A stretch of 32,000 nt of DNA from Cylindrospermopsis raciborskii Cr2010 (GTDB lineage: Bacteria > Cyanobacteriota > Cyanobacteriia > Cyanobacteriales > Nostocaceae). A program made the position numbers and the translations under genes. Where the stretch lies: the NCBI RefSeq assembly GCF_003367075.2, contig NZ_CP065936.1:1020001-1052000 (forward strand). Direction: 5' to 3'. Under the pieces are notes generated by a model, which saw only the letters and a list, made by a program, of their open reading frames with translations, was not told where the DNA came from and ran no database searches. This document shows, one piece after another, positions 1,188-15,481 of the stretch; position 1 is the first letter of the stretch; the number at the start of each line of letters is the position of its first letter.

Positions 1188-1568
1188 TTATTGATGACAT
1201 AATTGATCATACTTTCGCCATCCACCATAAATAGTAATTTCTTTTTGTCCTGCTACTAAAAAAGGCTCTGCTAACACTCCTAAAACTACTTTTTTATCAT
1301 CCAACTCAATTTTACCCACACACAACCCTGGTGGTTCTTGTATTAAAATATCAGCAATTCCCCCTAAAGGAACTTGCCAAATCTCCACACTAATAGATTT
1401 ACCTCCTTCCACATCACGAAGCATTCCCGGATATTGATCCTTAATTGACCATAGACGATAGCAGGGTGCTGTGAAAGATTCTCGGTCAAAAACCGCACCC
1501 ACGTTCAGCAAATTATTATTTAATTTTAGTCCCCTCATTAGAGTACCATTTACAGCAAATTCAATCAT
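1188..1568 (-). CDS. small gamma-glutamylcyclotransferase / AIG2-like protein (resembles the allophanate hydrolase C-terminal domain)
   Basis: N-terminus MIEFAVNGTLMRG...YRLW...YPGM fits the remembered GGCT/AIG2-like pattern. ATG at 1568 lies 1 nt after the permease stop; an alternative GTG at 1580 is the track start. It is the last gene of the ABC operon. Confidence 0.45.
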   Translation of the reverse strand: MIEFAVNGTLMRGLKLNNNLLNVGAVFDRESFTAPCYRLWSIKDQYPGMLRDVEGGKSISVEIWQVPLGGIADILIQEPPGLCVGKIELDDKKVVLGVLAEPFLVAGQKEITIYGGWRKYDQLCHQ

Positions 1569-1569
1569 A

Positions 1570-2379: not shown

Positions 2380-3176
2380 TTTTGCATTTCCTGACGAAAA
2401 ATATCTAAACAATAACGACTGACTTCTACAAATTTATGAGAAGTTAGAGTTTCAGGTGTGCGAGGTCGAGGAGCATCAAAGGTCACCATTTCAACTACCC
2501 GGGTTGGACGTTTACTTAGTAATAAAATCTTATCAGCCAAAAAGATAGCCTCTTCTAGGTTATGTACAACCATCAACATAGGAATGGTGGTGGCCATAAA
2601 AATCTCTTGCAATTTATCCCGTACAAATAACGTAGTTTCAAAGTCTAAAGCTGAAAAGGGTTCATCTAAAAATAGCACCTCCGGTTGAGCAACTAACGCT
2701 CTGAGAATTGAAACTAACTGCTGCTGTCCACCAGAAAAACTATAGGGATATCGTTTTAGATCTAAGCAAATATTGAAAGTCTCAATTAAATGCTCTACAG
2801 AATGACGACACTCCCGTTCAGAAATACCTTTAACACGAAGTGGATAGGCAATATTATCGTAAGCACTCATCCAGGGAAAAAGAGAGTCTCGGTAATTTTG
2901 AAATACATAGCCAATCCGAGTCCGCTGAATGGGTTTACCATGGATTTTGATTTCACCTTGATCCACCGGAATTAAACCACTCATCATATTGATTAAAGTA
3001 GATTTACCACACCCATTAGGACCAAAAATCGAGACTAATTGATGATTGGCTAGGTTGAGATCAAAGTTTTTGTATACAGGTTGCCCAGCAAAGGACTTAC
3101 ACAACCCTTTGACCGTGATAAATTCTTCCGATTTTGCTGTCTTTGTCTGTAGAAGTGAATCCATGATTATCTTCAA
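2376..3176 (-). CDS. ABC transporter ATP-binding protein (NitT/TauT family)
   Basis: Walker A GPNGCGKST, signature FSGGQQQ, Walker B VLFLDEPFSALD, H-loop VVHNL. Confidence 0.9.
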   Translation of the reverse strand: MKIIMDSLLQTKTAKSEEFITVKGLCKSFAGQPVYKNFDLNLANHQLVSIFGPNGCGKSTLINMMSGLIPVDQGEIKIHGKPIQRTRIGYVFQNYRDSLFPWMSAYDNIAYPLRVKGISERECRHSVEHLIETFNICLDLKRYPYSFSGGQQQLVSILRALVAQPEVLFLDEPFSALDFETTLFVRDKLQEIFMATTIPMLMVVHNLEEAIFLADKILLLSKRPTRVVEMVTFDAPRPRTPETLTSHKFVEVSRYCLDIFRQEMQK

Positions 3177-3225
3177 TTATTGCTGAATAATGGCTTTAGC
3201 CAGAATGGGTTGATGGCGTGAATCC

Positions 3226-4230
3226 TTACGAATTTTTATATAACAGATTACTCACATCTACTTTTTTGGAAAAGACTTTTTTATCAGTCATAAAATCGAA
3301 GAATTTTTGGAAGTAGTTAATATCCTCAGCGGTAAATTCATCATACATGGTGTAGGTAATTAGTGGCACTTTTTGTACTAAGTCCCCAGAGATGGCTGTA
3401 TATCCAACTAAGTATTGTCGCACTGCATCCGGTTGGTTTTTAATATCCGCAATAGCTCGACGATAAGCTTGTATATAAGATTGGGTAGACTTGGGATAGG
3501 TTTGCAAAAATTGAGTGCTTAAAACCGCCGCACCACCAAACCAGGGTGCTTTAGGATCTCCTAGGATATATTTCGACACCACACCATTTTCTAAAATTCT
3601 GGTGATACCTTTCATATCCCCAACCGTACCTGTAGGTTCTAAAGTATAAGCAGCATCTATTTGTCCTGATTCAATTGCTGCTACGTGTTGGCGTATCTCT
3701 AACTGTTGGATTTCTGGTTTTTCAACCCCTGCTGCGGCTAAAATAGCTTGAGCAATGGCTAGATTTTGCGCTCCCGGTCCTGTGGCAAACTTTTTATTTT
3801 TTAAATCGGCAACAGATTTAATAGGGCTGTTTTTACCAACCACAACTTGATCTAGTTTATAATCCACATTACTGGGATTAGCTGCAATAATTTTAAACAG
3901 ACCCGGTGAAGTAATTTCAGACAGGCCCAATACACCACTGGCCACTCCATTACCCGTACCCTGTAATCTACTAGCAATTAAAGCCTCAGCTACTTGATTG
4001 GGAGAAGCAAATTGAGCTACTTCCACGTTGAGACCCGCTTCTTTAAAGTAGCCTTTTTTATCCGCTACAAATAAGGGTAACCCAGAAGCTACAGGCCAAA
4101 ACCCAATGGTGATTTTACCAGGATTCTCACTAGTATCCGGGGTGGATTTGGAATTCCCTTGGGTACAACCATGGGTCGCAAGTGCTAAGGTAGCACCACC
4201 ACCCAGATAAAGTAAGTGTCTTCTGCGCAT
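3226..4230 (-). CDS. ABC transporter substrate-binding lipoprotein, NMT1/SsuA-like
   Basis: Signal peptide with lipobox (LALATHGC). The KITIGFWPVASGLPLFVADKKGYFKEAGLNVEV motif is paralogous to the NrtA and NrtC-C-terminal motifs in this same window. It is the first gene of the minus-strand operon. Confidence 0.8.
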   Translation of the reverse strand: MRRRHLLYLGGGATLALATHGCTQGNSKSTPDTSENPGKITIGFWPVASGLPLFVADKKGYFKEAGLNVEVAQFASPNQVAEALIASRLQGTGNGVASGVLGLSEITSPGLFKIIAANPSNVDYKLDQVVVGKNSPIKSVADLKNKKFATGPGAQNLAIAQAILAAAGVEKPEIQQLEIRQHVAAIESGQIDAAYTLEPTGTVGDMKGITRILENGVVSKYILGDPKAPWFGGAAVLSTQFLQTYPKSTQSYIQAYRRAIADIKNQPDAVRQYLVGYTAISGDLVQKVPLITYTMYDEFTAEDINYFQKFFDFMTDKKVFSKKVDVSNLLYKNS

Positions 4231-4670: not shown

Positions 4671-4859
4671 ATGAACAGAGAACTAGAAGCTCAAGAGTCA
4701 AAAATTCAGGATGTACAAGCACCAATTACTGCTGCATCACCGGAAGTAAAACAGATAATAGAAAAAGTGTGTAGATTAGAAAAATCGCGACTGGCCAGAA
4801 AAAGCAAGGGTGCAGTTAATGAAGACATTTTAGCAATAATTAAAGAAGCGGTAAAATAA
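4671..4859 (+). CDS. 62-aa Lys/Glu-rich, probably helical small protein; first gene of the dnd-associated cassette
   Basis: ATG-initiated ORF ending 11 nt before the next start, co-directional with it. No recognisable motif. I vaguely recall a public family named 'DNA modification system-associated small protein' but cannot verify membership. Confidence 0.5.
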   Translation: MNRELEAQESKIQDVQAPITAASPEVKQIIEKVCRLEKSRLARKSKGAVNEDILAIIKEAVK

Positions 4860-4870
4860 GTAGTGTAGCA

Positions 4871-6940
4871 ATGAAACTAACTTCGATTAAATTTTGTAAT
4901 TTTCGTTCCTTTTATGGACAAACACCAGAAATTGCCATAGCAGGTGGAGAGTTTCAGAATACCACCATAATTCATGGTAATAATGGTGCGGGAAAAACCA
5001 GTTTATTAAATGGATTTACCTGGGTGCTATATGAAAAATTTACAGCTGCTTTCGCGGTGACAGAGCAGCTGGTTAATAAACGTGCGATTTCAGAAGTAGG
5101 AGAGGATCAAGCTGTAGAATGTTGGGTAGAAGTAGGTTGGGAACATGAAGGAGTTCGCTACCGGGCAAAACGTAACTGTCGGGTTTATAAAAATCCCACT
5201 AGTATTGATGCTACCAAAACTAAATTAACAATTCAAATTGTGGGGGATGATGGCAAGTGGTATTTTCCCATTGAACAACCGGAGGAAATAATCAATAATA
5301 TATTGCCTGTAAGTTTACATCAATACTTCTTTTTTGATGGAGAAAGAATAGAAGAAATTGTCCGCTCTGATAAAAAAGCTGAAATTGCTGAAGCCACGGA
5401 AATATTTTTAGGTGTTAAGGTAATTGATCTGGCGACAAAACATTTAAAGGAGGCTAAAAAAACTTTAGATAGTGAATTGGCAGCTATTGGAGATGCGGAA
5501 ACTAAACAATTATTAAAACAGCAAAGTAAACTAGAAAAAGAAATTAGTAAAATTTCCCAAAGACAAACGGAAATAGCTGAAGATTTAGAAAGTCAACAAG
5601 TTTTTAAAAAAGATATCAGCGCCAGATTGGTAGAATTAAGTTCAGTTAGGGATTTACAAGAAAGAAGGGAAAGGCTAGAAAATCAAAAACGCAATAATTA
5701 TGATGAATTAAAAAAAACTAAAGAGGGTTTGAAAAAAGCTATTTCCAAACAGGCATACACATTATTATTAAGTGAGACAACAGTTAAATTCAGACAGATT
5801 ATTGTTGCTTTTAAACAGCGCGGGCAATTAAAATCTGGTATTTCCAGAGAATTTGTCAGCGAACTGATGAAAAGTGGTAGGTGTATTTGTGGCGCAGAAT
5901 TAAAAGAAGGAGGGAATGGACATTTTCACGTTAAATCACTGTTGAGAAAAACCGGATCTTCTTCCGTGGAAGAAACTGCAATTAGAATGGGAGCGCAAAT
6001 AGATGATCTGGAAAAACAAGCTCAATTATTTTTAGAGATGATCAATCGAGAACAACAAAGAATCTATCAGTTAAAGACATCACTTTCTGACATAGAGATG
6101 AATTTAGATAGCATTGAGGAGATTTTGCGGAAAGACCCAAATGAAGACATTAGCGGTTTACAAAAGAGATTGGATGAAATAGAAGCAAGAATTGACGATT
6201 TAAATCGGGAGCAAGGAGCAAACCAAAAAGAAATTTCTCACCTCAATACAGAAATTGATATTGTAGTCAAACAAATTGCCAAGCAAAAACAAAATGAAGG
6301 AAGACAGATTTTGGCACAGCGTCGAATTATTGCTACCCAAGATGCTATTGACATATTAACTGAAGTGAAAAATAGACAAGAAAAGCAATTTAGATTGCAA
6401 TTAGAAAAAAGAGTGCAAGAAATATTCTCAGAAATTTCCGTTACACCATATATTCCCAAAATTAGCGAAAAATATGAACTGACCTTAGTAGAGAATACAA
6501 CCGGAATAGAAGCTGCTGTTGCAGCATCTACCGGGGAAAATCAAATTCTGAGTTTATCATTTATCGCCAGTATTATTGATAAAGTAAGGGAATGGAGTGA
6601 AAAGAAAAAAATCATGATGGTTCCCGATAGTAGTACCTTCCCCATAGTAATGGACTCACCCTTTGGCAGTTTAGATGCTAACTCTCGTCGTCATATTGCA
6701 CAAACCATTCCCAAGTTGGCAAATCAGTTAGTAGTGCTGGTGACTAAGACCCAATGGAGAGAGGAAGTTGAGTCCGAGATTATGGAGCGAATTGGTAAGG
6801 AATATGTGTTGACCTATTATTCTTCTAAAACCAACTGTGAAGAGGACTTTTTGCAAATAGGTAGGGAGAAGTATTACCTAACTCGTCAAAGTTCTAATGG
6901 TTTCGAGTACAGTGAAATTGTAGAAGTAGAAAGGAGTTAA
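4871..6940 (+). CDS. SMC/Rad50-like ABC ATPase, paralogue of DndD (second copy in the locus)
   Basis: Walker A HGNNGAGKTS. YFFFDGERIEEI matches DndD LFLFDGEQVKEL. A K/E/Q-rich coiled-coil region spans about aa 190-520. Signature STGENQILSLSF matches DndD SAGEKQLLAIAF. Walker B/D-loop FPIVMDSPFGSLD matches DndD LPVAIDTPLGRLD. Confidence 0.85.
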   Translation: MKLTSIKFCNFRSFYGQTPEIAIAGGEFQNTTIIHGNNGAGKTSLLNGFTWVLYEKFTAAFAVTEQLVNKRAISEVGEDQAVECWVEVGWEHEGVRYRAKRNCRVYKNPTSIDATKTKLTIQIVGDDGKWYFPIEQPEEIINNILPVSLHQYFFFDGERIEEIVRSDKKAEIAEATEIFLGVKVIDLATKHLKEAKKTLDSELAAIGDAETKQLLKQQSKLEKEISKISQRQTEIAEDLESQQVFKKDISARLVELSSVRDLQERRERLENQKRNNYDELKKTKEGLKKAISKQAYTLLLSETTVKFRQIIVAFKQRGQLKSGISREFVSELMKSGRCICGAELKEGGNGHFHVKSLLRKTGSSSVEETAIRMGAQIDDLEKQAQLFLEMINREQQRIYQLKTSLSDIEMNLDSIEEILRKDPNEDISGLQKRLDEIEARIDDLNREQGANQKEISHLNTEIDIVVKQIAKQKQNEGRQILAQRRIIATQDAIDILTEVKNRQEKQFRLQLEKRVQEIFSEISVTPYIPKISEKYELTLVENTTGIEAAVAASTGENQILSLSFIASIIDKVREWSEKKKIMMVPDSSTFPIVMDSPFGSLDANSRRHIAQTIPKLANQLVVLVTKTQWREEVESEIMERIGKEYVLTYYSSKTNCEEDFLQIGREKYYLTRQSSNGFEYSEIVEVERS

Positions 6941-6953
6941 TTTTTTTCTGGTT

Positions 6954-7427
6954 ATGGCTGAAACTAGTAGAATTAGAATTGCTGGGGATAAAGCCGATTT
7001 TGTCAAGGCTTTGGTTGCTAATGATGGGGCCCAGGGTCCCTTTCAGACCTTTGCTGATGTGATTGCTTTTGCTGCTGCTTTAGGTATTAAATATCAGAAG
7101 CGTATTCCATTTGAAGAAATCTCTAAAAGGGATCCTTCTCCCATCAGATTAGAGGTTTTTGCAACATCAGGATATGATGTGTTGATCAAATTACTGGCAA
7201 TTGTAGAAACGGAGAACATTCAACTTTTATCACCTAATAATGACGAAGAAGAAAAACAACGTAATCAAATTTTTGAAGAATATGCTAATGGAGGGTTAGA
7301 GATTTTAGAGACTCAAATCAGAGGATCCGTCGATTATACGGAGAGAATTCTATTGTTTTTACAGCGTGAACATCAAACAATTGATGGGGAAGATGGAGAA
7401 TTTGATCTCTCTAGATTTTTATCCTAG
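6954..7427 (+). CDS. 157-aa dnd-locus-associated protein of unknown function
   Basis: Starts 13 nt after the ATPase stop on the same strand. No catalytic motif is visible. It resembles my memory of the family annotated as 'dnd system-associated protein 4' (FADVIAFAAALG ... IFEEYANGGL), unverified. Confidence 0.55.
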   Translation: MAETSRIRIAGDKADFVKALVANDGAQGPFQTFADVIAFAAALGIKYQKRIPFEEISKRDPSPIRLEVFATSGYDVLIKLLAIVETENIQLLSPNNDEEEKQRNQIFEEYANGGLEILETQIRGSVDYTERILLFLQREHQTIDGEDGEFDLSRFLS

Positions 7428-7440
7428 TCTCCCCCATTTG

Positions 7441-7535
7441 TAATCTAAGTGGGTGATTGGAATTAAATATAAGATGAACGTAGAACGTAGGTTGGGTTGA
7501 AGTATGAAACCCAACACCCCCATGGGTTACCCTAC
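7441..7535. repeat. dispersed ~90-bp repeat, copy 1 (inverted relative to copy 2 at 31861-31945)
   Basis: The reverse complement aligns almost base-for-base with 31861-31945. It contains the hairpin GTTGGGTT-N9-AACCCAAC. Copy 1 carries an extra tandem 7-mer (aacgtag aacgtag). Confidence 0.85.
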
Positions 7536-7571
7536 CGCTAACCCATCCTACAAATAATTACGCCTCCCTAC

Positions 7572-9125
7572 TTATATGGATGGAAGTCCTACCTCTTGAG
7601 CACTAACCCAGTTCCCATCAAAGTCAATAGCACGATCTTCCGTGGTTCTAGCACTTGCTATTGCTTTGCGTAGTTCTGCAATTTCCATCTGGTCTTTGAT
7701 TTCTCCCAATAGATAAATTAATAATTTTACTGCCAATTCTTTTTTAGACACTTGAACCCGCTTTTTATTCGGATCATATAAAACTCCATACCATAGAGAA
7801 TTAGGAAACTCCATTTGACTAAAACCACCCTGAAGATCAAATTTTTGCAACTTTTTAAAAATGTTTTCTAATAAGAGACCATTTTTAAAAACTAAAATTC
7901 CTAAAGCTTCTGCTAAGGCAACTTGTGCCACAGGACGAAATAAAATATTGCCCTCACCACCAACTTTTTCAAAACTGAATCGCCGTAAAACAGTTGTATC
8001 TTCATGATCTAAAATCTTATAACTAGGGAGGGTGGCTAAATGGTCAAATAGCTGTTCAAATTCCCTAATTCCTTCTGCTAACTCGTCAGGGTCTGGACGC
8101 ATGGGAATCAATCCCTTAATTTGGGGTTGCCAATGGGGAAATTTGTATCCTAAATATTTAGTTGACATATCTTGTAAGGCTTGTAATGTGGTCAATACGG
8201 TGGAATTAGCTGCTACTGTGGCGCTGTTCCAGTTAATCCGAGGTTTCCGATTCTCTCTGTGCGCTAACAGGGGATGACTTACTGCTATTTTTCTGGCTAC
8301 AATTGCAAAACCATTATCTTCATTTAATTGGATCAGTTGACCTTTAGTCAAGGGGGTAGCCATTAAATTCACATGCACAAAAATTGATCTGACTCTCTGT
8401 TTGGCTTCTGAGTAGGTTTCTCCACTATTGACTGCACAAATAAATTCAATTCCAATTTTTTCCTGGGGTAATTGTTTGAGATAGTCAATATTAATCCTAT
8501 ATTGGTCTACCAACTCTGACAGATCTATATAACTATCAGTGGGGATTTTATCTCGGTTATATTTTGTTATTCTTCCATTTTCTAACAGTTCTAATAAACC
8601 CTGAACTCCCATTAATCTATGTTGACCGTCTAAAGCATAGATATTTACATCTTTTTCTGCTACATTCAATAAACCAATATGACCATTTGCATCTAAAGGG
8701 GTAAAATCAGTAGTTGCTTTTTTGGCGCGTCCCTCCCCACCCCATAATTCTGATTTTGCATCATTCGCCCAGGGTTGATTGATTACAACTAGTACTGGTG
8801 GAAACTTATGATTTCTATGTATAGTTAGATATTGTAATAATGAAGCTTGACGTGACCAATCTAAAGAACGCTGTTGAATCTGCTCAATACTATCCGCGTC
8901 AATTTCAATGTTGTCTGTAACCGGATTATATTTATTTTGCAATATCGGTAGAGTAGAAGCGAACTCAACCTTTTTTGCAAACCATTCCAAAGTAACTGAG
9001 CCTAGATAAGCGGTAACATCACCCATTTTCGTTTGTTGAACTATAATTTGAGATGGAAGTTGAGGGGGTTGACCTACTGGGTACTGAGGAAAAATGCTAC
9101 GGTTATCTTGAGGTATTTTTGCCAT
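7572..9125 (-). CDS. DGQHR-domain protein (DndB-like, ParB-fold family), 517 aa
   Basis: Literal DGQHR motif (IYALDGQHRLMG, aa 166-170, nt 8616-8630). Upstream QRSLDWSRQASLLQYL...FPPVLVV block, downstream FVHVNLMATPLTKGQLIQL block. Divergent from dndC. Confidence 0.85.
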   Translation of the reverse strand: MAKIPQDNRSIFPQYPVGQPPQLPSQIIVQQTKMGDVTAYLGSVTLEWFAKKVEFASTLPILQNKYNPVTDNIEIDADSIEQIQQRSLDWSRQASLLQYLTIHRNHKFPPVLVVINQPWANDAKSELWGGEGRAKKATTDFTPLDANGHIGLLNVAEKDVNIYALDGQHRLMGVQGLLELLENGRITKYNRDKIPTDSYIDLSELVDQYRINIDYLKQLPQEKIGIEFICAVNSGETYSEAKQRVRSIFVHVNLMATPLTKGQLIQLNEDNGFAIVARKIAVSHPLLAHRENRKPRINWNSATVAANSTVLTTLQALQDMSTKYLGYKFPHWQPQIKGLIPMRPDPDELAEGIREFEQLFDHLATLPSYKILDHEDTTVLRRFSFEKVGGEGNILFRPVAQVALAEALGILVFKNGLLLENIFKKLQKFDLQGGFSQMEFPNSLWYGVLYDPNKKRVQVSKKELAVKLLIYLLGEIKDQMEIAELRKAIASARTTEDRAIDFDGNWVSAQEVGLPSI

Positions 9126-9261
9126 GAAGTTAATTTTTTAAAAACTTAATTGGAGATTAGGTTGTCTATTTTGCCAAAATATTACATACTAGTACGAAAC
9201 TATAGTTGTCAATACTTTCTAGAAATTTCCCTTGTAAAGGTCTGATTTACATTCCCGACCT

Positions 9262-9358
9262 TGAATTCCCACAGAATTCATCGGTGAATTGATAAGATCA
9301 TCAGCAATTGTTTTCCCAATTATCCCTCCTAATTACAACAATTATCCCCAATTACAAC
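9262..9358. promoter_or_regulatory. candidate operator region in the DGQHR/dndC divergent spacer
   Basis: Perfect inverted repeat TGAATTC-ccaca-GAATTCA at 9262-9280, plus a third TGAATT at 9285-9290. Imperfect tandem unit aattatccc(n)aattacaac at 9318-9339 and 9340-9358, ending directly at the dndC ATG. Confidence 0.3.
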
Positions 9359-9359
9359 C

Positions 9360-11015
9360 ATGGTGACATCAGAAAGTAAAACCCCGCCGAATCGAACTGT
9401 AGCTGAGCTGGTGGAGAATATTCTAGTTCTTACGAAAGAAATTCAGCAATTATACTGTTTGGACGACATACCCTGGGTGGTTGGTTATTCTGGAGGAAAA
9501 GACAGTACGGCAATCTTACAACTGATTTGGAATGCTATTTCTGATTTACCACCAGAAAAAAGAACTAAGACCATTCACGTCATTACCACAGACACAGGCG
9601 TAGAGAATCCTTATGTTTCCGCTTGGGTACGTGCTTCTCATGAAAATATCAAAAAAGCTGCCCAAGAACAGCAAGTTCCCATGCAAGCTCACCTTTTACA
9701 ACCAGAAACAAAGGAGACATATTGGGTGGGTCTAATTGGTAAGGGATATCCTGCTCCCCGTCAAAAATTTCGCTGGTGTACTGAACGCCTAAAAATCAGC
9801 CCATCTAACCGTTTTATTCGTGATATGGTTAGGGAAAGTGGAGAAACAATCCTGGTTCTGGGTATTCGCAAGACCGAAAGTAAAAATCGTGCTGCTACCA
9901 TGAAAAAAATGGAGGCTAAAAGACTGCGCGATCGCCTGAGTCCCAATGGCAATTTACCCAATTCCCTGGTTTACAGTCCCATAGAAGATTGGCGGACTGA
10001 TGAAGTTTGGCTATATTTGATGCAGTGGGATAATCCTTGGGGGCACAGTAATAAGGATCTATTTGTGATGTATAGGCAATCAACGGAAGACAATGAATGC
10101 CCATTGGTTGTTGACACATCTACTCCTAGTTGTGGCAGTTCTCGTTTTGGTTGTTGGGTTTGTACCCTAGTTGATCGTGATGTATCCCTGAGTGCAATGA
10201 TTCAAAATGATCAAGAAAAAGAGTGGATGCAACCAATAGTTGAGTTTAGGAAGGAATTAGATATTGAAAATGACAGAGAAAAAAGGGATTTTCGTCGCAT
10301 TTGGGGGGAAGTTCAATTATTTGAACGGAACAGAAATGGGGAAATGTCGGTTGAACCCATACCTGGGCCATATACAAAATATTGGCGAGAATACTGGTTA
10401 AGAAAATTATTAACAGCACAAAAAGAAATGAGAGAGAATGCACCAGAAAACATGGCCAATATCACCCTAATCTCAATGGAAGAACTGAGTGAAATTCGCC
10501 GTATCTGGCTGGAAGAAAAACACGAATTTGACGACAGTTTACCCCAAATATATGAACAAGTGACAGGAGAAAAATTTAAAGATTCTCGACCTGGCGCAGA
10601 TTATAGTCTATTAGGTGGGGATGAGTGGGAGGTGTTAGAACAAATCTGTGCGGGTAACTCTATGGAATTAGAGCTGATGGCAAAGTTACTAGACACGGAA
10701 AGACAATTCAAGAAAAAAACCCGCCGAGTAGGGATTTTTGAAACTTTAGAAAAGTGCTTTGAAACTAGTTCCCGTTCCCAACAAGAGGCTATTGATTATG
10801 CTCATTTTAAAAGAGATCTACGTCTAGCAGCTAGTGAAGGCAATGTAGCAACAATTCGTCAGGCATTTAAACAATTAGATATACCACGGGTGCAAGAGCA
10901 AAATAACACTGAGTATAACACTGAAAATAAGACCGAAGATAAAAAACCCCTAGAGCAACCACTGAGTTTTGCGAGCATGAAATATAGAAAGTATGAATAT
11001 AAGCAAGAAGAATAG
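9360..11015 (+). CDS. dndC: DNA phosphorothioation sulfurtransferase DndC (PAPS-reductase-like, PP-loop)
   Basis: PP-loop SGGKDS (nt 9489-9506). Cys cluster CPLVVDTSTPSCGSSRFGCWVCT typical of the DndC Fe-S site. 551 aa, followed by dndD and dndE. Confidence 0.9.
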   Translation: MVTSESKTPPNRTVAELVENILVLTKEIQQLYCLDDIPWVVGYSGGKDSTAILQLIWNAISDLPPEKRTKTIHVITTDTGVENPYVSAWVRASHENIKKAAQEQQVPMQAHLLQPETKETYWVGLIGKGYPAPRQKFRWCTERLKISPSNRFIRDMVRESGETILVLGIRKTESKNRAATMKKMEAKRLRDRLSPNGNLPNSLVYSPIEDWRTDEVWLYLMQWDNPWGHSNKDLFVMYRQSTEDNECPLVVDTSTPSCGSSRFGCWVCTLVDRDVSLSAMIQNDQEKEWMQPIVEFRKELDIENDREKRDFRRIWGEVQLFERNRNGEMSVEPIPGPYTKYWREYWLRKLLTAQKEMRENAPENMANITLISMEELSEIRRIWLEEKHEFDDSLPQIYEQVTGEKFKDSRPGADYSLLGGDEWEVLEQICAGNSMELELMAKLLDTERQFKKKTRRVGIFETLEKCFETSSRSQQEAIDYAHFKRDLRLAASEGNVATIRQAFKQLDIPRVQEQNNTEYNTENKTEDKKPLEQPLSFASMKYRKYEYKQEE

Positions 11016-11063
11016 ATTCTTAGATTATTAGTTTGCCATCTTGATTTTTGAACTGCTGGAATT

Positions 11064-13118
11064 ATGATTTTTTTAGAACTTGTACTGCAAAACTTTGGTC
11101 CTTATGCTGGTAAGCAAGTGATTAATTTGGATACCAGAATCGATCAGAATAACATTCGTCCAATTATTCTTTTGGGGGGGATGAACGGAGGAGGAAAAAC
11201 CACCCTGATGGATGCTATTCGCTTGGCATTATATGGAGCAAGGGCCCAATGTTCCACCAGGGGAAATTTAAGTTATGGTGACTTTCTCACCCAGTGTGTG
11301 AATAACAAAGCTGACCCGATTAATAAAACCAGAATCGAGTTGGTTTTTGAACACATTGAAGATGATAAACCCGTGAGGTATCGGGTAGTGAGAACTTGGG
11401 AAAAAAACCCCAAGGATGGTAAAGATTCCCTGGGAATTTTGGGGGATGACGAAACCTGGCCCCAGTCTTTAGCCAATATCTGGGACGAATACATAGAAAA
11501 TATATTGCCCTTGGGTATTTCTAATTTATTTTTATTTGATGGTGAGCAGGTCAAGGAACTAGCAGAACAGGAAGTTCCTCCTCCCATAGTGGTGGATGCA
11601 ATTAATGGACTCTTGGGATTGGAGTTAGTAGATAAATTGTCCTTAGATTTGGAAATATTAGTCAATCGCAAAAAAAAGGAAAATGCTGATGATCAGGATT
11701 TGGCTAAGTTGGAAGAATTGGAAACCCGTTTGCATAAACAAATGGAGCAAAAAAATTCTCAAAAATCTCAGTTGCAAGACCTAGAGGAGCAGGTAAAAAA
11801 TTTAAAAGTTAAATATGAGGAAGCCCTAAATAAGTATATATCAGAAGGTGGCAAAATTGCCGGGGAACGCAGTCAACTGGATAGGGAGAGGGAAACTCAG
11901 GTTGGCAAGGTGGAAAATCTACGGAAAACTTTATGCGAATTGGCTGAGGGTGTGTTACCTTTACAGTTAATTAGTAATTTATTATCTCAAGTCCAGATCC
12001 AGGGTGAAAAAGAGTTAAGACTTCAACAAATACAGTTACAAAATCAAGTGGCTAGAGATATTTTAATTACTAGAGATAAAAGATTGGTTTCCTTCCTCCA
12101 TCAATTGAATCTAAAACTGGAAACAATCACCAGTATTGAAAATTTCCTGCTTCAGGATATTGATAGTTTATATATGGATTTATCTACTAAATTGTATGAT
12201 AATAAAACAGTTAAAGCCAATGTGAAAGCCAATAATGCCAATAATTATGAAGGGTCTTTCTTACATGCAGACGAAGAAACTTTAAGTTCTTTAGATCGTC
12301 TGATCTATGGCTTGCCAACAGTCCAAAATAACGCCAAAAACCACCTGCTCGAACTGCGCAATTGTCTAGAATTAATTGTCAGCCTAGATAGGCAAATTCA
12401 AGCTGCTGCTCCACCAGAAGCATACATCAAACTACAAAAAATCCGAGAACTGGCTGAAAAAGAATGGAGTCGAGCAAATACCAATTTGGAAATACTCAAT
12501 CGTCAGTTCATCAATTTAACTACCACCATTGATAAAACCAAACGAGAGTTGAATAGTTATACCGACAAAAATCTTAAATATCAAAGTAATCAACATTTGA
12601 TTGCTTCAGTCCATAGAGTACAAGAAAATTTAAAGTTGTTTAAAGAAAAACTAACTTTAAGGAAATTAAATAAATTAGAAGAAGAAGTAAAAAACTGTTT
12701 TTTGTATTTACTACATAAATCATATTTGGTCTATAGAGTGGGAATTGATGCTAAAAGTTTCCAACTCTCATTGTATGATCTCCACGGTAAATTAGTCCCT
12801 AAACATAGACTATCCGCAGGAGAAAAACAACTCTTGGCGATCGCCTTTTTATGGGGTTTAGCAAAAGTGTCTGGAAAACAACTACCGGTGGCAATTGACA
12901 CCCCCCTAGGAAGACTAGATTCATCCCATAGAAATAACCTACTGGAAAGATATTTCCCCACAGCAAGCCATCAAGTAATTTTACTATCCACAGATACAGA
13001 AATAGCCAGGAAAGAAATAGCAATACTCAGAGAACATCAGGCGATCGCACGAGAATATATTTTAGAGTATGATTCAGGAAAAAGAGAAACAACCATCAAA
13101 GAGGGATATTTTTGGTAA
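11064..13118 (+). CDS. dndD: DNA sulfur modification protein DndD (SMC-like ATPase)
   Basis: Walker A GGMNGGGKTT, LFLFDGEQVKEL, long coiled coil, signature SAGEKQLLAIAFLWGL, Walker B/D-loop LPVAIDTPLGRLD. Lies between dndC and dndE. Confidence 0.9.
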   Translation: MIFLELVLQNFGPYAGKQVINLDTRIDQNNIRPIILLGGMNGGGKTTLMDAIRLALYGARAQCSTRGNLSYGDFLTQCVNNKADPINKTRIELVFEHIEDDKPVRYRVVRTWEKNPKDGKDSLGILGDDETWPQSLANIWDEYIENILPLGISNLFLFDGEQVKELAEQEVPPPIVVDAINGLLGLELVDKLSLDLEILVNRKKKENADDQDLAKLEELETRLHKQMEQKNSQKSQLQDLEEQVKNLKVKYEEALNKYISEGGKIAGERSQLDRERETQVGKVENLRKTLCELAEGVLPLQLISNLLSQVQIQGEKELRLQQIQLQNQVARDILITRDKRLVSFLHQLNLKLETITSIENFLLQDIDSLYMDLSTKLYDNKTVKANVKANNANNYEGSFLHADEETLSSLDRLIYGLPTVQNNAKNHLLELRNCLELIVSLDRQIQAAAPPEAYIKLQKIRELAEKEWSRANTNLEILNRQFINLTTTIDKTKRELNSYTDKNLKYQSNQHLIASVHRVQENLKLFKEKLTLRKLNKLEEEVKNCFLYLLHKSYLVYRVGIDAKSFQLSLYDLHGKLVPKHRLSAGEKQLLAIAFLWGLAKVSGKQLPVAIDTPLGRLDSSHRNNLLERYFPTASHQVILLSTDTEIARKEIAILREHQAIAREYILEYDSGKRETTIKEGYFW

Positions 13119-13148
13119 TTAGGTAAGAGAGTTAATATCATACCAGGT

Positions 13149-13550
13149 ATGAAAATGGAATCACCCATAGAAAGAATTAAACTATCGCAGACGGCCAAGG
13201 ATCAACTGTTGAAATTAAAACGTGTCACCCGTATAGAACAATGGAATATACTATGTCGGTGGGCGTTTTGTCGTTCTCTAGCTGAAACCAGTCCCCCATC
13301 ACCCATACCCATACCCCAAGACAGTAATGTAGAGCTGACGTGGAAAGTATTTGGGGGAGAAATAGCAGATATTTTGCTGTTAGCACTAAAACAACGGTGT
13401 AATAACGACGGTTTAGGAACAGACTCAGAAACCCTAATCACCCAATTTCGCTTGCACCTACATAGAGGTATAGGATATTTAGCAGGGGATCCAAATATTA
13501 AGAGTATTGAAGATTTCATAGATCTGACTAGCAAGAATGTGAAAAGCTAG
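13149..13550 (+). CDS. dndE: DNA sulfur modification protein DndE
   Basis: 133 aa. N-terminal IKLSQTAKDQLLKLKRVTRIEQWNILCRWAFCRSL matches the remembered DndE pattern. It is the terminal gene of dndCDE, 30 nt after dndD. Confidence 0.8.
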   Translation: MKMESPIERIKLSQTAKDQLLKLKRVTRIEQWNILCRWAFCRSLAETSPPSPIPIPQDSNVELTWKVFGGEIADILLLALKQRCNNDGLGTDSETLITQFRLHLHRGIGYLAGDPNIKSIEDFIDLTSKNVKS

Positions 13551-13583: not shown

Positions 13584-15101
13584 ATGATTCAAGAAATCCA
13601 AGCACTAAAACAGGCATTTTATAGTCGCAAGATGGGGAGTTTGCTGTTGCTCGGTTTTGCTTCCGGGTTACCACTGTTTCTCACCACTCGCACCCTGCAA
13701 CTATGGATGAAAGATGCTGATGTAGAGGTTGCCAAAATCACATTATTTAGCCTAGTCAGTCTACCATACTCCTTAAAATTTATTTGGTCTCCCCTAATTG
13801 ATAGATTTTCTCCATCCTTTTTAGGGGGGAGGAGAGGTTGGTTGTTCCTTACTCAATTGGGGTTAGTGCTAGCAATAGTAATCATGGCATTACAGCAACC
13901 AACCCAAAACACCCAAGTGCTAATCACCCTAGCCATTATATCATTTATTATTGCCTTTTTTAGTGCCACCCAAGATATTGCTGGGGATGCCTATAGAACG
14001 GAAATTTTAAAGCCCCTAGAATTGGAAACAGGAGCATCTGTATGGGTTTTAGGTTATCGGGTAGCTCTATTTATTGCCTTTTCTTTAGCAGCATGGTTAG
14101 CAGGATTTCTGTCATGGAATATGGTATACCTACTCATGGCAGGATTTATGACCGTGGGACTCATTACCACTCTTTTGGCTCCACCAGAAACCCAAGAGAA
14201 AAACAACTCACCCAAGACCAACAATAGGTTTTTAAAAACTAAGGATATTATATTTCTCCTGCTGATTATCACCATAACTGCTGCTTTAGTGGGGGGTGTA
14301 ATTTCCCAGGTAATCCCCCTGCAAGTCTTTTATTGGATATTAGGTGGACTACTAATAACTTGGGTTCTGGCCTCAATTATCTTGCCCAAACCCCAACTAA
14401 ATGAACACTCCCAAGACCTGACACCACACACCCTACAAGAAGCAGTCATCTTACCACTACAAATCTTCCTAGAAAAATATGGCATTAGTAAAGCACTAAT
14501 TATCCTCATCTTCATTATACTCTATAAACTGGGTGATTCCCTCGTAGGAATCACAGCCAACCTATTTGCCAAAGAAATTAACTTTAATAACCAGGAACTA
14601 GCAACAGTTTACATTATTGGACTAATAGCCACCACCACAGGGGTCATCCTCGGTGGAATAATAATGTCTAAAATTGGCATCAACCGCGCCCTTTGGATAT
14701 TTGGCATCCTCCAACTACTCAGCAACCTAGGTTATTATACACTAGCTATTGTTGGCAAAGACTACCCTCTCCTGGCGATCGCTATTATGATCGAAAACAG
14801 CAGTGCTGGACTAGTCACCGTAGCTACAGTGGCTTACCTAATGAGCTTATGTAGTCATAACTTTACCACCACACAATTTGCTCTATTTTCTAGCCTTATG
14901 GCATTAAGTCGAGACATACTTTCAGCACCTGCAGGGGACTGGGCAAAAGCTACTGGTTGGCCAAATTTCTTTCTGTTATCTATATTAGCAGCTTTACCTG
15001 GATTAATACTGTTACCTATAGCCGCCCCTTGGAATAATAAATCGTTAACAGTAAACAGACCAGGACTTGAAAAGGAGGATTTATGGAACCACAAGCAGTA
15101 A
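13584..15101 (+). CDS. ampG: AmpG-family MFS muropeptide permease
   Basis: LLGFASGLPLFLTTRTLQLWM ... LPYSLKFIWSPLIDRF...GRRRGWLFLTQL is the characteristic AmpG N-terminal pattern. About 12-14 hydrophobic helices. Confidence 0.8.
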   Translation: MIQEIQALKQAFYSRKMGSLLLLGFASGLPLFLTTRTLQLWMKDADVEVAKITLFSLVSLPYSLKFIWSPLIDRFSPSFLGGRRGWLFLTQLGLVLAIVIMALQQPTQNTQVLITLAIISFIIAFFSATQDIAGDAYRTEILKPLELETGASVWVLGYRVALFIAFSLAAWLAGFLSWNMVYLLMAGFMTVGLITTLLAPPETQEKNNSPKTNNRFLKTKDIIFLLLIITITAALVGGVISQVIPLQVFYWILGGLLITWVLASIILPKPQLNEHSQDLTPHTLQEAVILPLQIFLEKYGISKALIILIFIILYKLGDSLVGITANLFAKEINFNNQELATVYIIGLIATTTGVILGGIIMSKIGINRALWIFGILQLLSNLGYYTLAIVGKDYPLLAIAIMIENSSAGLVTVATVAYLMSLCSHNFTTTQFALFSSLMALSRDILSAPAGDWAKATGWPNFFLLSILAALPGLILLPIAAPWNNKSLTVNRPGLEKEDLWNHKQ

Positions 15102-15481
15102 TTATTCTTGGTACAATCGTATTAATAATTACAGGGTTGTTATTGGGTTATGTAGTTTCACAATTAGTTTTAGGATATTTGGGGTTTAGCCTTCTTACCC
15201 TGCTAGGAACAGTCAGCCTGGTGTTGATTTTTGGTGCCCTCTACTACGTAATATTTTGGCAATTGCGACGACAGTTACAACCAGCAAATTTCGGTTCTGT
15301 CAAACAAGTAGATGAGGAAATAACAGGAAGTTACCTGAAAAACAGACTCATTACCAGACTATCTGGTGATGTAGCTGCTGCGGAAAGATTAATTGAACAG
15401 GCCCAACAAAACTATCCAGGAATGCCAGAAAATTGGTACTGTGAAAAAGTCCTTGATGATTTAGATCGGGATCAACATTAA
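15083..15481 (+). CDS. membrane protein of unknown function (two N-terminal TM helices, soluble C-terminal tail)
   Basis: ATG overlaps the ampG 3' end by 19 nt. Hydrophobic N-terminus. The C-terminal AAAERLIEQAQQNYPGMPENWYCEKVLDDLDRD motif looks like a conserved cyanobacterial motif to me. Confidence 0.6.
   Translation: MEPQAVIILGTIVLIITGLLLGYVVSQLVLGYLGFSLLTLLGTVSLVLIFGALYYVIFWQLRRQLQPANFGSVKQVDEEITGSYLKNRLITRLSGDVAAAERLIEQAQQNYPGMPENWYCEKVLDDLDRDQH

What the first reader, a model, noticed from the sequence alone, without database searches (positions are those of the whole stretch)
4671..13550. Atypical dnd locus: dndCDE with four accessory genes and no dndA, dndFGH or canonical dndB
Seen in sequence: dndC (PP-loop plus Cys cluster), dndD and dndE run in a row on the + strand. 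Upstream sit a divergent 517-aa DGQHR protein and a convergent 3-gene cassette (62 aa, 689-aa DndD-like ATPase, 157 aa). The window has no cysteine desulfurase (dndA) and no large DndH-like helicase/nuclease or DndF/G-like genes. Established knowledge: classical systems are dndABCDE plus dndFGH. dndA can be replaced by a housekeeping IscS-type desulfurase. A dndB-less dndCDEA paired with a four-gene pbeABCD module has been described from archaea, with bacterial homologues reported. Inference: four accessory genes plus a missing canonical dndB fit that second layout better than the classical one, but I cannot align to Pbe proteins from memory. The locus has no integrase, tRNA or flanking direct repeat. 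dndE ends only 33 nt before ampG, so it looks like an old, embedded island rather than a recent insertion.
Basis: partly seen in the sequence, partly recalled or inferred. Interest (0 to 1): 0.75.

Follow-up and report, generated by a model that had tools for sequence, protein, structure and literature searches.

The report
Reduced cyanobacterial Dnd–Pbe phosphorothioation locus
This is a trimmed-down copy of an old DNA-sulfur-modification and virus-defence gene cluster shared by heterocyst-forming cyanobacteria; it keeps the modification genes and three of the four partner genes intact, but lacks the helicase and nuclease genes that its relatives carry at the same place.

Summary
The seven ORFs are real and lie at the stated coordinates. 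dndC, dndD and dndE pass their equivalog HMMs.

The three-gene cassette is pbeB (62 aa), pbeC (a CxC-type ABC ATPase; PADLOC PbeC 1097 bits) and pbeD (TIGR04062). The 517-aa DGQHR protein is not PbeA, which is a ResIII helicase (TIGR04095). It is not an orthologue of DndB either. It belongs to a separate, unnamed "long DGQHR" family of about 530 aa with a ParB/GmrS-like fold, found next to dnd genes in several phyla.

In 83 Nostocales genomes the layout is syntenic: argF-lexA-pbeA-pbeB-pbeC-[variable]-pbeD-[variable nuclease or DndB]-DGQHR<>dndC-dndD-dndE-ampG. The window comes from a relative of Raphidiopsis or Cylindrospermopsis. It is the most compact version: no pbeA anywhere in 32 kb, and both variable slots empty. 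All seven genes are under purifying selection (dN/dS 0.04-0.19).

The "Pbe-type" reading is therefore right for the family and wrong in gene assignment. "Old embedded island" is right. pbeA may be lost or moved elsewhere in the genome, as it is in Dolichospermum. Phosphorothioation itself was not tested. I rate this a new variant of a known kind, of moderate interest.

The parts
4671..4859 (+). pbeB: 62-aa small protein, 11 nt upstream of pbeC
   Evidence: No HMM hit; PADLOC has no PbeB model. A small ORF occupies the same position upstream of pbeC in 58 of 83 Nostocales loci and in the Pseudanabaena, Ruegeria, Natrinema and Psychromonas loci. They share the motif PEVxQIIExVxxxEKxRL...INxDILxIIKEAVK (alignment A6). 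dN/dS is 0.135 against Raphidiopsis.
4871..6940 (+). pbeC: 689-aa CxC-type ABC ATPase (DndD paralogue)
   Evidence: PADLOC PbeC PDLC02753, 1097 bits over the full length. TIGR03185 DndD scores only 144 bits, below its 246-bit cutoff. The CxC motif lies at C338-I-C340, and Walker A, signature and Walker B motifs are intact. It is 51% identical to the Pseudanabaena PbeC and 28-29% to the Ruegeria and Natrinema PbeC, each of which sits next to a PbeA.
6954..7427 (+). pbeD: 157-aa 'DNA phosphorothioation-associated protein 4'
   Evidence: TIGR04062, 188 bits against a cutoff of 74. It aligns with the gene downstream of pbeC in Ruegeria, Pseudanabaena and Natrinema, sharing an invariant YAxGGLE motif (A3). 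dN/dS is 0.042.
7428..7571 (.). Empty 'slot 1' between the convergent pbeD and DGQHR genes; it holds only a short dispersed repeat that can form a hairpin
   Evidence: In other Nostocales this gap is 1-2.9 kb and carries SBD-HNH, a DndB-family gene, GIY-YIG, AIPR, GmrSD or other DGQHR genes. Here it is 144 bp. The 29-mer at 7487-7515 recurs exactly at 31878-31906. The predicted fold has a z-score of -1.9.
7572..9125 (-). Long DGQHR protein (517 aa): ParB/GmrS-like N-terminal part plus a helical C-terminal part. It belongs to a distinct dnd-linked family and is transcribed divergently from dndC.
   Evidence: TIGR03187 DGQHR domain, 170 bits. PF14072, 35 bits against a gathering score of 29. No hit to TIGR03233 (DndB) or TIGR04172, and no PADLOC hit. 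The family has 146 clusters (at 50% identity) with E<=1e-30, all about 520-580 aa and matching over the full length. AlphaFold model pLDDT is 92.6. Fold neighbours are DUF262/GmrSD-N/ParB-like proteins. It lies divergent from and adjacent to dndC in 81 of 83 loci.
9126..9359 (.). Divergent intergenic region (presumed promoter or operator) between the DGQHR gene and dndC
   Evidence: A GTTTTTAAAAA palindrome immediately upstream of the DGQHR start codon and a TAGTAT..ATATTTTGG element are conserved across Nostocales loci. Their function was not tested.
9360..11015 (+). dndC: PP-loop ATP pyrophosphatase / [4Fe-4S] sulfurtransferase, 551 aa
   Evidence: TIGR03183, 699 bits; PADLOC DndC, 656 bits. 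SGGKDS motif and Cys cluster present. There is a weak C-terminal hit to PF20306 Sp-DndD.
11064..13118 (+). dndD: ABC ATPase of the modification complex, 684 aa
   Evidence: TIGR03185, 651 bits over the full length.
13149..13550 (+). dndE, 133 aa
   Evidence: PF08870, 149 bits; TIGR03184, 132 bits.

Best explanation
Region 4671-13550 is the version of an ancient, chromosomally fixed Nostocales Dnd-Pbe locus carried by a relative of Raphidiopsis or Cylindrospermopsis.

**Shown**
- It encodes the phosphorothioate (PT) writer core DndC-DndD-DndE.
- It encodes a divergently transcribed member of a distinct, dnd-linked long-DGQHR family with a ParB/GmrS-like fold.
- It encodes three of the four Pbe genes: PbeB (small protein), PbeC (CxC ABC ATPase) and PbeD (TIGR04062).
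- Compared with the layout seen in most relatives (argF-lexA-pbeA-pbeB-pbeC-[slot 2]-pbeD-[slot 1: nuclease or DndB]-DGQHR<>dndCDE-ampG), this copy has no pbeA and both variable slots are empty. The seven remaining genes are intact and under purifying selection.

**Inferred mechanism**
- DndCDE, supplied with sulfur by a housekeeping cysteine desulfurase encoded elsewhere, places PT at a short sequence motif in the host's own DNA.
- PbeC with PbeD and PbeB forms a second DNA-scanning complex, driven by an ABC ATPase, that tells PT-marked DNA from unmarked DNA and hinders replication of unmarked phage DNA.
- Without a linked helicase or nuclease, its action here is either weaker (the published pbeA deletion kept low-level protection), or is completed by an unlinked pbeA, or is completed by the long DGQHR protein.
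- The DGQHR protein most likely acts as an NTP-dependent DNA-binding regulator or sensor of the Dnd machinery, working from the shared divergent promoter region.
For: **Gene identities.**

**Definition of the Pbe genes.** From Xiong 2019 (PMC6459918) and the 2024 reappraisal (PMC10853773): PbeA is a PLD/HKD plus SF2 helicase protein, PbeB a small protein, PbeC a CxC ABC ATPase, and PbeD about 150 aa. The order PbeA-PbeB-PbeC-PbeD is seen directly in Pseudanabaena, Ruegeria and Natrinema.

**Counts in 83 Nostocales loci.**
- dndC in 82, of which 81 are divergent from and adjacent to the DGQHR gene.
- pbeD in 78, pbeC in 59, pbeB in 58, pbeA in 41.
- All eight genes within +/-10 kb in 32 loci.

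**Full layouts.** Sphaerospermopsis torques-reginae and a contig carrying the PbeA protein of Anabaena sp. FACHB-709.

**Co-inheritance.** Spearman rho of pairwise identities: DGQHR-PbeC 0.91, DndE-PbeC 0.88, DndD-PbeC 0.85. The right flank is syntenic.

**Absence of pbeA here.**. It is also absent within 7 kb beyond pbeB in Raphidiopsis.

**Selection.** dN/dS is 0.04-0.19 for all seven genes.

**Published clue.** The pbeA deletion mutant retains low-level resistance.

**The long DGQHR family tracks dnd genes outside cyanobacteria.**
Against: - No chemical evidence that this organism's DNA carries PT.
- The sulfur donor gene (dndA/iscS type) is not in the window.
- pbeA may exist elsewhere in the genome. 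In Dolichospermum sp. DL01 it stays beside lexA while its downstream neighbours are unrelated genes, so "PbeA-less" holds only for the locus.
- The published claim that PbeD is a DndE cognate was not reproduced with my shallow profiles (hhalign probability 0.6%).
- The role of the long DGQHR protein is inference only. The protein is unusually conserved for a defence effector (mean pairwise identity 0.86).
- Vertical inheritance and the lack of any nuclease here also fit a non-defence role, either epigenetic or antioxidant (Jian 2021).
Confidence: 0.75

Rival explanations
1. One reading: the four accessory genes together are a complete pbeABCD-type module, with the DGQHR protein as one of the four.
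For: There are four genes beside dndCDE, and three of them are true Pbe genes.
Against: PbeA is a ResIII/Helicase_C protein (TIGR04095). The 517-aa protein has no helicase or PLD match and no PADLOC PbeA hit. In 41 relatives a real pbeA is present in addition to the DGQHR gene.
Confidence: 0.03
2. The 517-aa protein is simply this lineage's DndB, the negative transcriptional regulator of dndCDE, so the locus is dndBCDE plus pbeBCD.
For: PF14072 (DndB) scores 35 bits, above its gathering score of 29, and the DGQHR motif is present. The gene is always adjacent to dndC. Palindromic boxes are conserved in the shared intergenic region, which recalls the two palindromes bound by Salmonella DndB (PMC4507180).
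Against: - No hit to the DndB equivalog TIGR03233.
- hhalign against the DndB-family genes of slot 1 aligns only 79 columns around the motif, with probability 27%.
- About 28 of the Nostocales loci carry both proteins, as do Psychromonas marina and a metagenome contig.
- It is 517 aa against about 360-400 aa for DndB, and it is divergent from dndC, not co-directional with it.
Confidence: 0.25
3. pbeA has been moved, not lost. The genome still carries lexA-pbeA elsewhere, and a complete PbeABCD works in trans.
For: - In Dolichospermum sp. DL01, pbeA remains beside argF-lexA while its downstream neighbours are unrelated genes.
- Anabaena minutissima has pbeA on the same contig as its locus, but not within the 3.2 kb fetched beyond pbeB.
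- PbeA is 84-95% identical across Nostocales, which indicates strong retention.
- The left flank of the window is not syntenic with other genera.
Against: No Raphidiopsis or Cylindrospermopsis PbeA appears among the best 120 hits. This is weak evidence, because proteins of this lineage sit on a long branch and would rank low. From memory, Raphidiopsis and Cylindrospermopsis have the smallest genomes among Nostocales, which would favour real loss.
Confidence: 0.4
4. The locus no longer works as a defence system. It is a modification-only system with an epigenetic or antioxidant role, and pbeBCD and the DGQHR protein serve the modification process itself.
For: - Jian 2021 (PMC8569181) argues that cyanobacterial dnd genes are vertically inherited, lack restriction partners and may be antioxidant or epigenetic.
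- Conservation is high and synteny is strict.
- No nuclease or helicase is present in this window.
Against: In relatives, the slot next to pbeD is filled by fast-changing nucleases: SBD-HNH, GIY-YIG, GmrSD and AIPR. pbeD variants track the type of slot content. This is the pattern of a defence locus. The archaeal homologues give about 10^4-fold protection.
Confidence: 0.2
5. A recently acquired mobile genomic island.
For: dnd clusters elsewhere are often on islands. In Deinococcus yavapaiensis the locus is flanked by integrases.
Against: No integrase, tRNA gene or direct repeats. GC content is about the same as in the flanks. The locus is at the same chromosomal position across the order.
Confidence: 0.02

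Closest known systems
DndCDEA-PbeABCD of Haloterrigena jeotgali (Xiong et al. 2019, PMC6459918)
   Same: dndC-dndD-dndE lie next to a small protein, a DndD-like ABC ATPase (PbeC) and a protein of about 150 aa (PbeD). There is no dndB and no dndFGH.
   Different: There is no pbeA and no linked dndA in the window. An extra long DGQHR gene is present. pbeBCD lie upstream and converge on the DGQHR gene, instead of following dndA. PbeC is only about 28% identical to a haloarchaeal (Natrinema) PbeC.
CxC-type ABC ATPase / DndE-cognate / small-protein systems (2024 reappraisal of the Dnd machinery, PMC10853773, and the earlier work it cites)
   Same: The CxC motif sits at the coiled-coil apex of the 689-aa ATPase. 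A small protein lies upstream. The system is in tandem with a DndD-DndE system.
   Different: [quoted passage not shown] Here there is none. In Nostocales relatives the helicase has no HKD/PLD domain. No methylase or MTaX1 gene is present.
Nostocales dnd clusters described by Jian et al. 2021 (PMC8569181)
   Same: The lineage is the same: dnd genes enriched and vertically inherited, dndFGH absent, and "various configurations".
   Different: That paper does not mention pbe genes, the long DGQHR family or the variable nuclease slot. It treats cyanobacteria as lacking restriction partners.
Classical dndBCDE(-dndFGH) of Salmonella and Streptomyces
   Same: dndCDE orthologues, with a gene of the DGQHR superfamily next to dndC.
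   Different: The DGQHR protein is not the DndB equivalog. Its gene is divergent from dndC. There is no dndFGH and no dndA.
DndI and SspE (DUF262 ParB-like NTPase fused to a DUF1524 HNH nickase; PMC11662687)
   Same: Both have a ParB/GmrS-like N-terminal NTPase fold and are encoded beside PT writers. They are a plausible model for sensing PT.
   Different: Their motif is DGQQR, not DGQHR. The 517-aa protein has no HNH/DUF1524 domain and no significant sequence or fold match to them.
TIGR04172 'DNA phosphorothioation-associated DGQHR protein 1' (Haft laboratory ProPhylo paper, 2011, PMC3226654)
   Same: It is a dnd satellite protein with a DGQHR domain. In Ruegeria it lies just downstream of pbeABCD.
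   Different: There is no significant pairwise similarity to the 517-aa protein. It is 410 aa and forms a separate family.

Membership tests
DndCDE phosphorothioate modification core | DndC, DndD and DndE each match their equivalog HMM above the curated cutoff, in one co-directional row | tested here: met
   TIGR03183 699 bits (cutoff 290), TIGR03185 651 bits (cutoff 246), TIGR03184 132 bits (cutoff 72). Gene order is dndC-dndD-dndE on the + strand.
DndCDE phosphorothioate modification core | DndC PP-loop and [4Fe-4S] cysteines; DndD Walker A, signature and Walker B motifs | tested here: met
   SGGKDS at residues 44-49, C247/C258/C265/C268, and the DndD motifs were read from the translations.
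DndCDE phosphorothioate modification core | A cysteine desulfurase (DndA or IscS) is available | not testable with these tools
   No Aminotran_5 gene in the 32 kb. The rest of the genome is not available.
DndCDE phosphorothioate modification core | Phosphorothioate linkages present in genomic DNA | not testable with these tools
   Needs LC-MS/MS or an iodine-cleavage assay.
PbeABCD module | PbeA: ResIII/SF2 helicase, with or without a PLD/HKD domain (TIGR04095; PADLOC PbeA) | tested here: not met
   No ORF or six-frame trace in the window. It is present in 41 of the 58 relatives that have pbeB and enough flanking sequence to judge.
PbeABCD module | PbeB: ORF of about 50-66 aa immediately upstream of pbeC | tested here: met
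   62 aa, 11 nt upstream of pbeC. It aligns with the equivalent ORFs from cyanobacteria, Ruegeria, Natrinema and Psychromonas.
PbeABCD module | PbeC: DndD-like ABC ATPase with a CxC motif | tested here: met
   PADLOC PbeC, 1097 bits. C338-x-C340 present.
PbeABCD module | PbeD: protein of about 150 aa downstream of pbeC (TIGR04062) | tested here: met
   TIGR04062, 188 bits against a cutoff of 74; alignment A3.
PbeABCD module | PT-dependent block of virus replication | not testable with these tools
   Experimental only.
CxC ABC ATPase - DndE cognate systems | The partner of the CxC ATPase is a DndE homologue | tested here: inconclusive
   hhalign of PbeD (8 sequences) against DndE (5 sequences) gave probability 0.6%. 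No PDB sequence hit. The alignments were shallow, so the claim rests on PMC10853773.
DndB (TIGR03233 / PF14072) | Match to the DndB equivalog model over its full length, for a protein of about 360-400 aa | tested here: not met
   No TIGR03233 hit at E<=0.01. PF14072 gives only a partial match (profile positions 30-214 of 338), 35 bits. The protein is 517 aa.
DndB (TIGR03233 / PF14072) | It is the single DGQHR partner of dndC in the locus | tested here: not met
   It coexists with a full-length PF14072 protein (302 bits) in about 28 Nostocales loci, and with DndB-family genes in Psychromonas marina and a metagenome contig.
Long DGQHR family (unnamed; about 520-580 aa) | Full-length homology plus invariant R86, R92, Y99, D166, G167, H169, R170, R244, R493 and P515, and adjacency to dnd genes | tested here: met
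   146 clusters (at 50% identity) with E<=1e-30, matching over the full length. Invariant columns across 74 diverse members. dnd gene context in cyanobacteria, Psychromonas (Gammaproteobacteria), Deinococcus and a metagenome contig.
Classical dndFGH restriction module | DndF, DndG and DndH genes near dndCDE | tested here: not met
   No matching ORFs in the 32 kb, and none among the genes called in the relatives' loci that were inspected gene by gene.

The most novel reading that the evidence does not exclude
The long DGQHR protein is the constant, so far unrecognised core partner of the Nostocales Dnd-Pbe system. On this reading it is a PT-sensing ParB/GmrS-like NTPase that works with PbeB, PbeC and PbeD to block replication of unmodified phage DNA without any helicase or nuclease. 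The gap next to pbeD would then be a plug-in site where lineages add or swap extra effectors (SBD-HNH, GIY-YIG, GmrSD, AIPR, DndB). The window would be the natural minimal form of such a system.
Probability: 0.15. Interest if true: 0.7.

Novelty: new variant of a known kind. Interest (0 to 1): 0.45.

Why it matters
Phosphorothioate-based defence is understood mainly from dndFGH, SspE, DndI and a single archaeal PbeABCD study. How Pbe stops viruses without cutting DNA remains disputed.

Nostocales offer many natural variants of one orthologous Dnd-Pbe locus, fixed at one chromosomal site:
- with or without the helicase at the locus;
- with many alternative nucleases in one slot;
- always with a conserved long DGQHR protein that no database names.

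This window is the minimal form. It is a natural test of what DndCDE, PbeBCD and the DGQHR protein can do on their own. The organism is a bloom-forming, toxin-producing cyanobacterium, so its resistance to cyanophage has ecological interest.

The analysis also corrects the published view that cyanobacterial dnd systems have no restriction partners.

Tried and rejected
Adding the Pseudanabaena PbeA showed it in 41 loci, and I rewrote the conclusion.
2. The lack of PADLOC hits for the 62-aa and 157-aa proteins looked like evidence against Pbe membership. It is uninformative: PADLOC-DB also fails on the equivalent small proteins of loci that do have a PbeA, so it appears to hold only PbeA and PbeC models.
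3. An AlphaFold run on a shallow alignment of 23 sequences gave pLDDT 57 and was discarded. A 74-sequence alignment with diverse family members gave 92.6.
5. hhalign of PbeD against DndE was negative.
6. BLASTP of the 517-aa protein against a TIGR04172 member was negative.
7. The sigma-70 promoter and terminator scan was close to chance level and was not used.
8. The 22-nt inverted repeat (9171-9192 and 15241-15262) was considered as a boundary of a mobile unit. Its second arm lies inside the conserved coding sequence of ORF 15083-15481, and in other genera the two elements are much less alike. It is probably a coincidence.
9. I could not establish whether Raphidiopsis carries pbeA elsewhere. 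Only the best 120 hits of a homologue search are listed, and all of them are at least 84% identical to the query.


Full report
**1. Checking the observation**

The seven ORFs are at the stated coordinates and strands. dndC, dndD and dndE pass their NCBIfam equivalog cutoffs by wide margins: 699 bits (cutoff 290), 651 (cutoff 246) and 132 (cutoff 72). They also match Pfam and PADLOC models.

The translations show the DndC PP-loop SGGKDS and the cysteine cluster C247/C258/C265/C268. DndD and the 689-aa protein have intact ABC ATPase motifs. The 517-aa protein has DGQHR at residues 166-170.

Pfam scans of every sizeable ORF in the 32 kb show housekeeping genes on both sides:
- upstream, a sensor kinase and an NMT1-type ABC transporter operon;
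- downstream, an MFS transporter, GNAT, a HEAT-repeat protein, an NdhD-like subunit, MetH, an amidase, NirA and nitrate-transporter-like (NMT1-type) ABC transporter genes.

There is no cysteine desulfurase, no DndF/G/H, no integrase and no large helicase. There are no tRNA genes and no flanking direct repeats. GC content is close to that of the flanks. The gene that starts 33 nt after dndE is an AmpG-family transporter (TIGR00901, 473 bits).

**2. What the Pbe genes are**

According to Xiong et al. 2019 (PMC6459918):
- PbeA is a large protein with a PLD domain, a type III Res domain and a helicase domain.
- PbeB and PbeD are small proteins of 66 and 152 aa.
- PbeC is an SMC/DndD-like ATPase.
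- All four are needed for full protection, but a pbeA deletion keeps low-level resistance.

The 2024 reappraisal (PMC10853773) re-describes them. PbeA is an HKD nuclease fused to an SF2 helicase. PbeB is a fast-evolving small protein. PbeC is a CxC-type ABC ATPase. PbeD is a DndE cognate.

The Haft laboratory had already built TIGR04062 (an uncharacterised dnd-dependent protein) and TIGR04095 (a Res-subunit subfamily) in 2011 (PMC3226654).

I checked these equivalences on annotated plasmids found with the 689-aa protein:
- Ruegeria pTHAF33_d carries dndD-dndE-dndA ... TIGR04095 (646 bits; PADLOC PbeA 776 bits), then a 63-aa ORF, PbeC, TIGR04062, a 180-aa ORF and TIGR04172.
- Pseudanabaena pPg_01 and a Natrinema plasmid have the same helicase, small ORF, ATPase and roughly 150-aa gene series, with a few unrelated genes between the ATPase and pbeD in Pseudanabaena.

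**3. The three-gene cassette is pbeB, pbeC and pbeD**

- The 689-aa protein scores 1097 bits on a PADLOC PbeC model but only 144 bits on the DndD equivalog, below its cutoff. It has the CxC motif (GRCICGAE, residues 336-343).
- The 157-aa protein is TIGR04062 (188 bits). It aligns with the Ruegeria, Pseudanabaena and Natrinema proteins and shares an invariant YAxGGLE motif.
- The 62-aa ORF has no HMM hit. It does align with the small ORFs that sit in the same position in Nostocales, Pseudanabaena, Ruegeria, Natrinema and Psychromonas.

PADLOC gave no hit for PbeB or PbeD. That is uninformative, because PADLOC also gave none for the equivalent proteins of loci that do have a PbeA.

**4. The 517-aa protein is neither PbeA nor DndB**

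It has no helicase or PLD match. It matches the general DGQHR domain model TIGR03187 (170 bits) and, partially, Pfam DndB (35 bits against a gathering score of 29). It does not match the DndB equivalog TIGR03233, TIGR04172 or any PADLOC model.

Its homologues form a full-length family of about 520-580 aa:
- more than 120 clusters at 64-93% identity in Nostocales;
- 146 clusters (at 50% identity) with E<=1e-30 across all public proteins;
- ten residues invariant across 74 diverse members, including D166, G167, H169 and R170.

Named members come from Psychromonas marina and Deinococcus yavapaiensis. NCBIfam covers them only through the domain model.

Outside cyanobacteria the family again lies inside dnd loci:
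- Psychromonas: pbeA-pbeB-pbeC-pbeD ... DGQHR ... dndE-dndD-dndC-dndB.
- Deinococcus: dndC-dndD-dndE-dndA-DGQHR, followed by a second dndC and dndD.
- A metagenome contig: DGQHR, a RelA/SpoT-domain gene, dndB-dndC-dndD-dndE, a methyltransferase-like gene and an SBD-HNH gene.

A profile comparison with the DndB-family genes found in relatives aligns only 79 columns around the motif, with probability 27%.

With a deep alignment, AlphaFold gives a confident model (pLDDT 92.6, pTM 0.89). Foldseek finds only DUF262/GmrSD-N/ParB-like proteins: among viral models at E 1.5e-6 to 3.4e-4, and BrxU, not significantly, in the PDB. No solved structure is detectable by sequence.

So the protein has a ParB/GmrS-like N-terminal part and a helical C-terminal part, with no recognisable HNH or HEPN motif.

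**5. Comparative genomics**

A scan of one genome per species found at least 521 relatives. The best 80 loci are all Nostocales. Together with three loci fetched earlier, this gives 83 non-redundant loci:

| Gene | Loci with it |
|---|---|
| dndC | 82 (81 divergent from and adjacent to the DGQHR gene) |
| dndD | 67 |
| dndE | 55 |
| pbeD | 78 |
| pbeC | 59 |
| pbeB | 58 |

The series dndE-ampG-o132-GNAT-HEAT is syntenic throughout.

After I added PbeA to the queries, a 493-aa ResIII plus Helicase_C protein appeared 0.3-0.6 kb upstream of pbeB in most of them (TIGR04095, 667 bits; no PLD domain). It is present in 41 of the 58 loci that have pbeB and enough flanking sequence to judge. Where examined (L044), lexA and argF lie next to it, as they also do. 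All eight genes lie within +/-10 kb in 32 loci.

Complete examples are Sphaerospermopsis torques-reginae and the contig carrying the PbeA of Anabaena sp. FACHB-709.

Two gaps vary between genomes:
- **Slot 1**, between pbeD and the DGQHR gene, holds different genes in different lineages: an SBD-HNH nuclease (29 loci), a full-length Pfam DndB-family protein (about 28 loci), other DGQHR proteins with GIY-YIG or HNH partners, AIPR, or GmrSD.
- **Slot 2**, between pbeD and pbeC, holds Uma2-like ORFs and unrelated genes.

Pairwise identities of DGQHR, DndD, DndE and PbeC co-vary strongly across genomes (rho 0.81-0.91). PbeD does not (about 0.3). PbeD sequence clusters instead track the content of slot 1; for example, 20 of 21 members of one cluster sit next to SBD-HNH. 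This suggests that pbeD and its neighbouring effector are exchanged together.

**6. What is special about this window**

The DGQHR protein is 100% identical to a metagenomic cluster and 93% identical to that of Raphidiopsis sp. BLCC-F218. The Raphidiopsis locus has the same compact layout.

- Slot 1 is 144 bp here and contains only a dispersed 29-nt repeat.
- Slot 2 is 13 nt.
- tblastn with cyanobacterial, Ruegeria and Natrinema PbeA sequences finds nothing in the window, or within 7 kb beyond pbeB in Raphidiopsis, even at E<=100.
- The left flank is not syntenic with other genera.

Loss and relocation of pbeA cannot be told apart. In Dolichospermum sp. DL01, pbeA stays beside argF-lexA while the genes downstream of it are unrelated.

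All seven genes are intact, with dN/dS of 0.04-0.19 against Raphidiopsis. pbeBCD and the DGQHR gene are therefore being kept by selection even without a linked helicase or nuclease.

**7. How it most likely works (inference)**

- DndCDE writes PT using a desulfurase encoded elsewhere. IscS substituting for DndA is established.
- PbeC, PbeD and PbeB form a second ATP-driven DNA-scanning complex that hinders unmodified invading DNA. The published residual activity of the pbeA deletion makes a helicase-independent function plausible.
- The long DGQHR protein tracks dndC, not the pbe genes. Its intergenic region with dndC has a conserved GTTTTTAAAAA palindrome. I therefore favour a regulator or sensor role on the Dnd side, with an effector role as the more novel alternative.

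None of this was tested.

**8. Known or new**

Jian et al. 2021 already reported that dnd genes are enriched and vertically inherited in Nostocales and that dndFGH is absent. They do not mention pbe. The 2024 reappraisal reports DndD and CxC systems in tandem across many taxa, but does not mention cyanobacteria, and says that most of these systems carry an HKD-helicase. I found no paper in the held library on PT in Nostoc, Anabaena or Raphidiopsis.

The window is therefore a reduced variant of a known kind of system. Three aspects appear undescribed: the long DGQHR family as a constant component, the variable effector slot, and pbeBCD retained without a linked pbeA.

**9. Limits**

- Only 32 kb of this genome was available.
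- PT chemistry, the sulfur donor, an unlinked pbeA and every functional statement remain untested.
- The PbeD-DndE relationship rests on the literature; my own test was negative.

Noticed in passing
window 9126-9359; aligned with L005-L054: The DGQHR<>dndC intergenic region carries a conserved palindrome, GTTTTTAAAAA(C/T), directly upstream of the DGQHR start codon. Most Nostocales have a second copy about 70 nt further on, but the window and Raphidiopsis do not. A conserved TAGTAT..ATATTTTGG element is also present. These could be an operator or promoter.
   Followed up: partly
window 9171-9192 and 15241-15262: A 22-nt inverted repeat (20 of 22 bases match; none expected by chance) brackets dndCDE and ampG. 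The second arm lies inside the conserved ORF 15083-15481, and in other genera the two elements are much less alike, so it is probably a coincidence.
   Followed up: partly
window 7487-7515 and 31878-31906: An exact 29-nt dispersed repeat, GTAGGTTGGGTTGAAGTATGAAACCCAAC, which can form a hairpin. One copy lies in the empty slot between pbeD and the DGQHR gene, the other after the last ABC transporter gene. It may mark the site of a deletion or act as a terminator.
   Followed up: partly
L001-L085, gap between the DGQHR gene and pbeD: This slot is hypervariable. It holds an SBD-HNH gene (ScoMcrA-like PT-binding nuclease), a DndB-family gene, GIY-YIG, HNH_5, AIPR, GmrSD or further DGQHR proteins. 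A nuclease that binds PT, encoded inside a PT-writing locus, is paradoxical and unexplained.
   Followed up: partly
L001-L085 (pbeD): PbeD evolves out of step with the rest of the locus (rho about 0.3, against 0.8-0.9 for the other genes). Its sequence clusters follow the type of neighbouring slot-1 gene, as if pbeD and that gene were swapped together.
   Followed up: partly
L044 16018-17499; L092-L094: The Nostocales PbeA is a 493-aa helicase-only protein with no PLD/HKD domain. It is 84-95% identical across the order and always sits beside lexA and argF. Its position next to the SOS regulator lexA may be meaningful.
   Followed up: no
window 15083-15481 (+): A 132-aa ORF overlaps the end of ampG by 19 nt. 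It has no family match but is conserved at 53-95% identity at the same position across Nostocales.
   Followed up: no
window 24718-25257 (-): A fragment of an IS605 OrfB (TnpB-like) gene, 179 aa, lies next to or overlaps an aldehyde-dehydrogenase-like ORF at 23370-24824. It is probably a decayed insertion.
   Followed up: no
window 9360-11015 (DndC residues 424-468): The C-terminal extension of DndC has a weak match to PF20306, 'small protein found in certain Dnd systems' (18.5 bits, below its cutoff). The same domain is called on the Deinococcus DndC.
   Followed up: no
L005 14455-17161 compared with window 1188-4230: In Raphidiopsis sp. the ABC transporter genes upstream of pbeB are fragmented and interrupted by AAA_21 ATPase ORFs, whereas in the window they are intact. 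The left boundary of the locus is a rearrangement hotspot.
   Followed up: no
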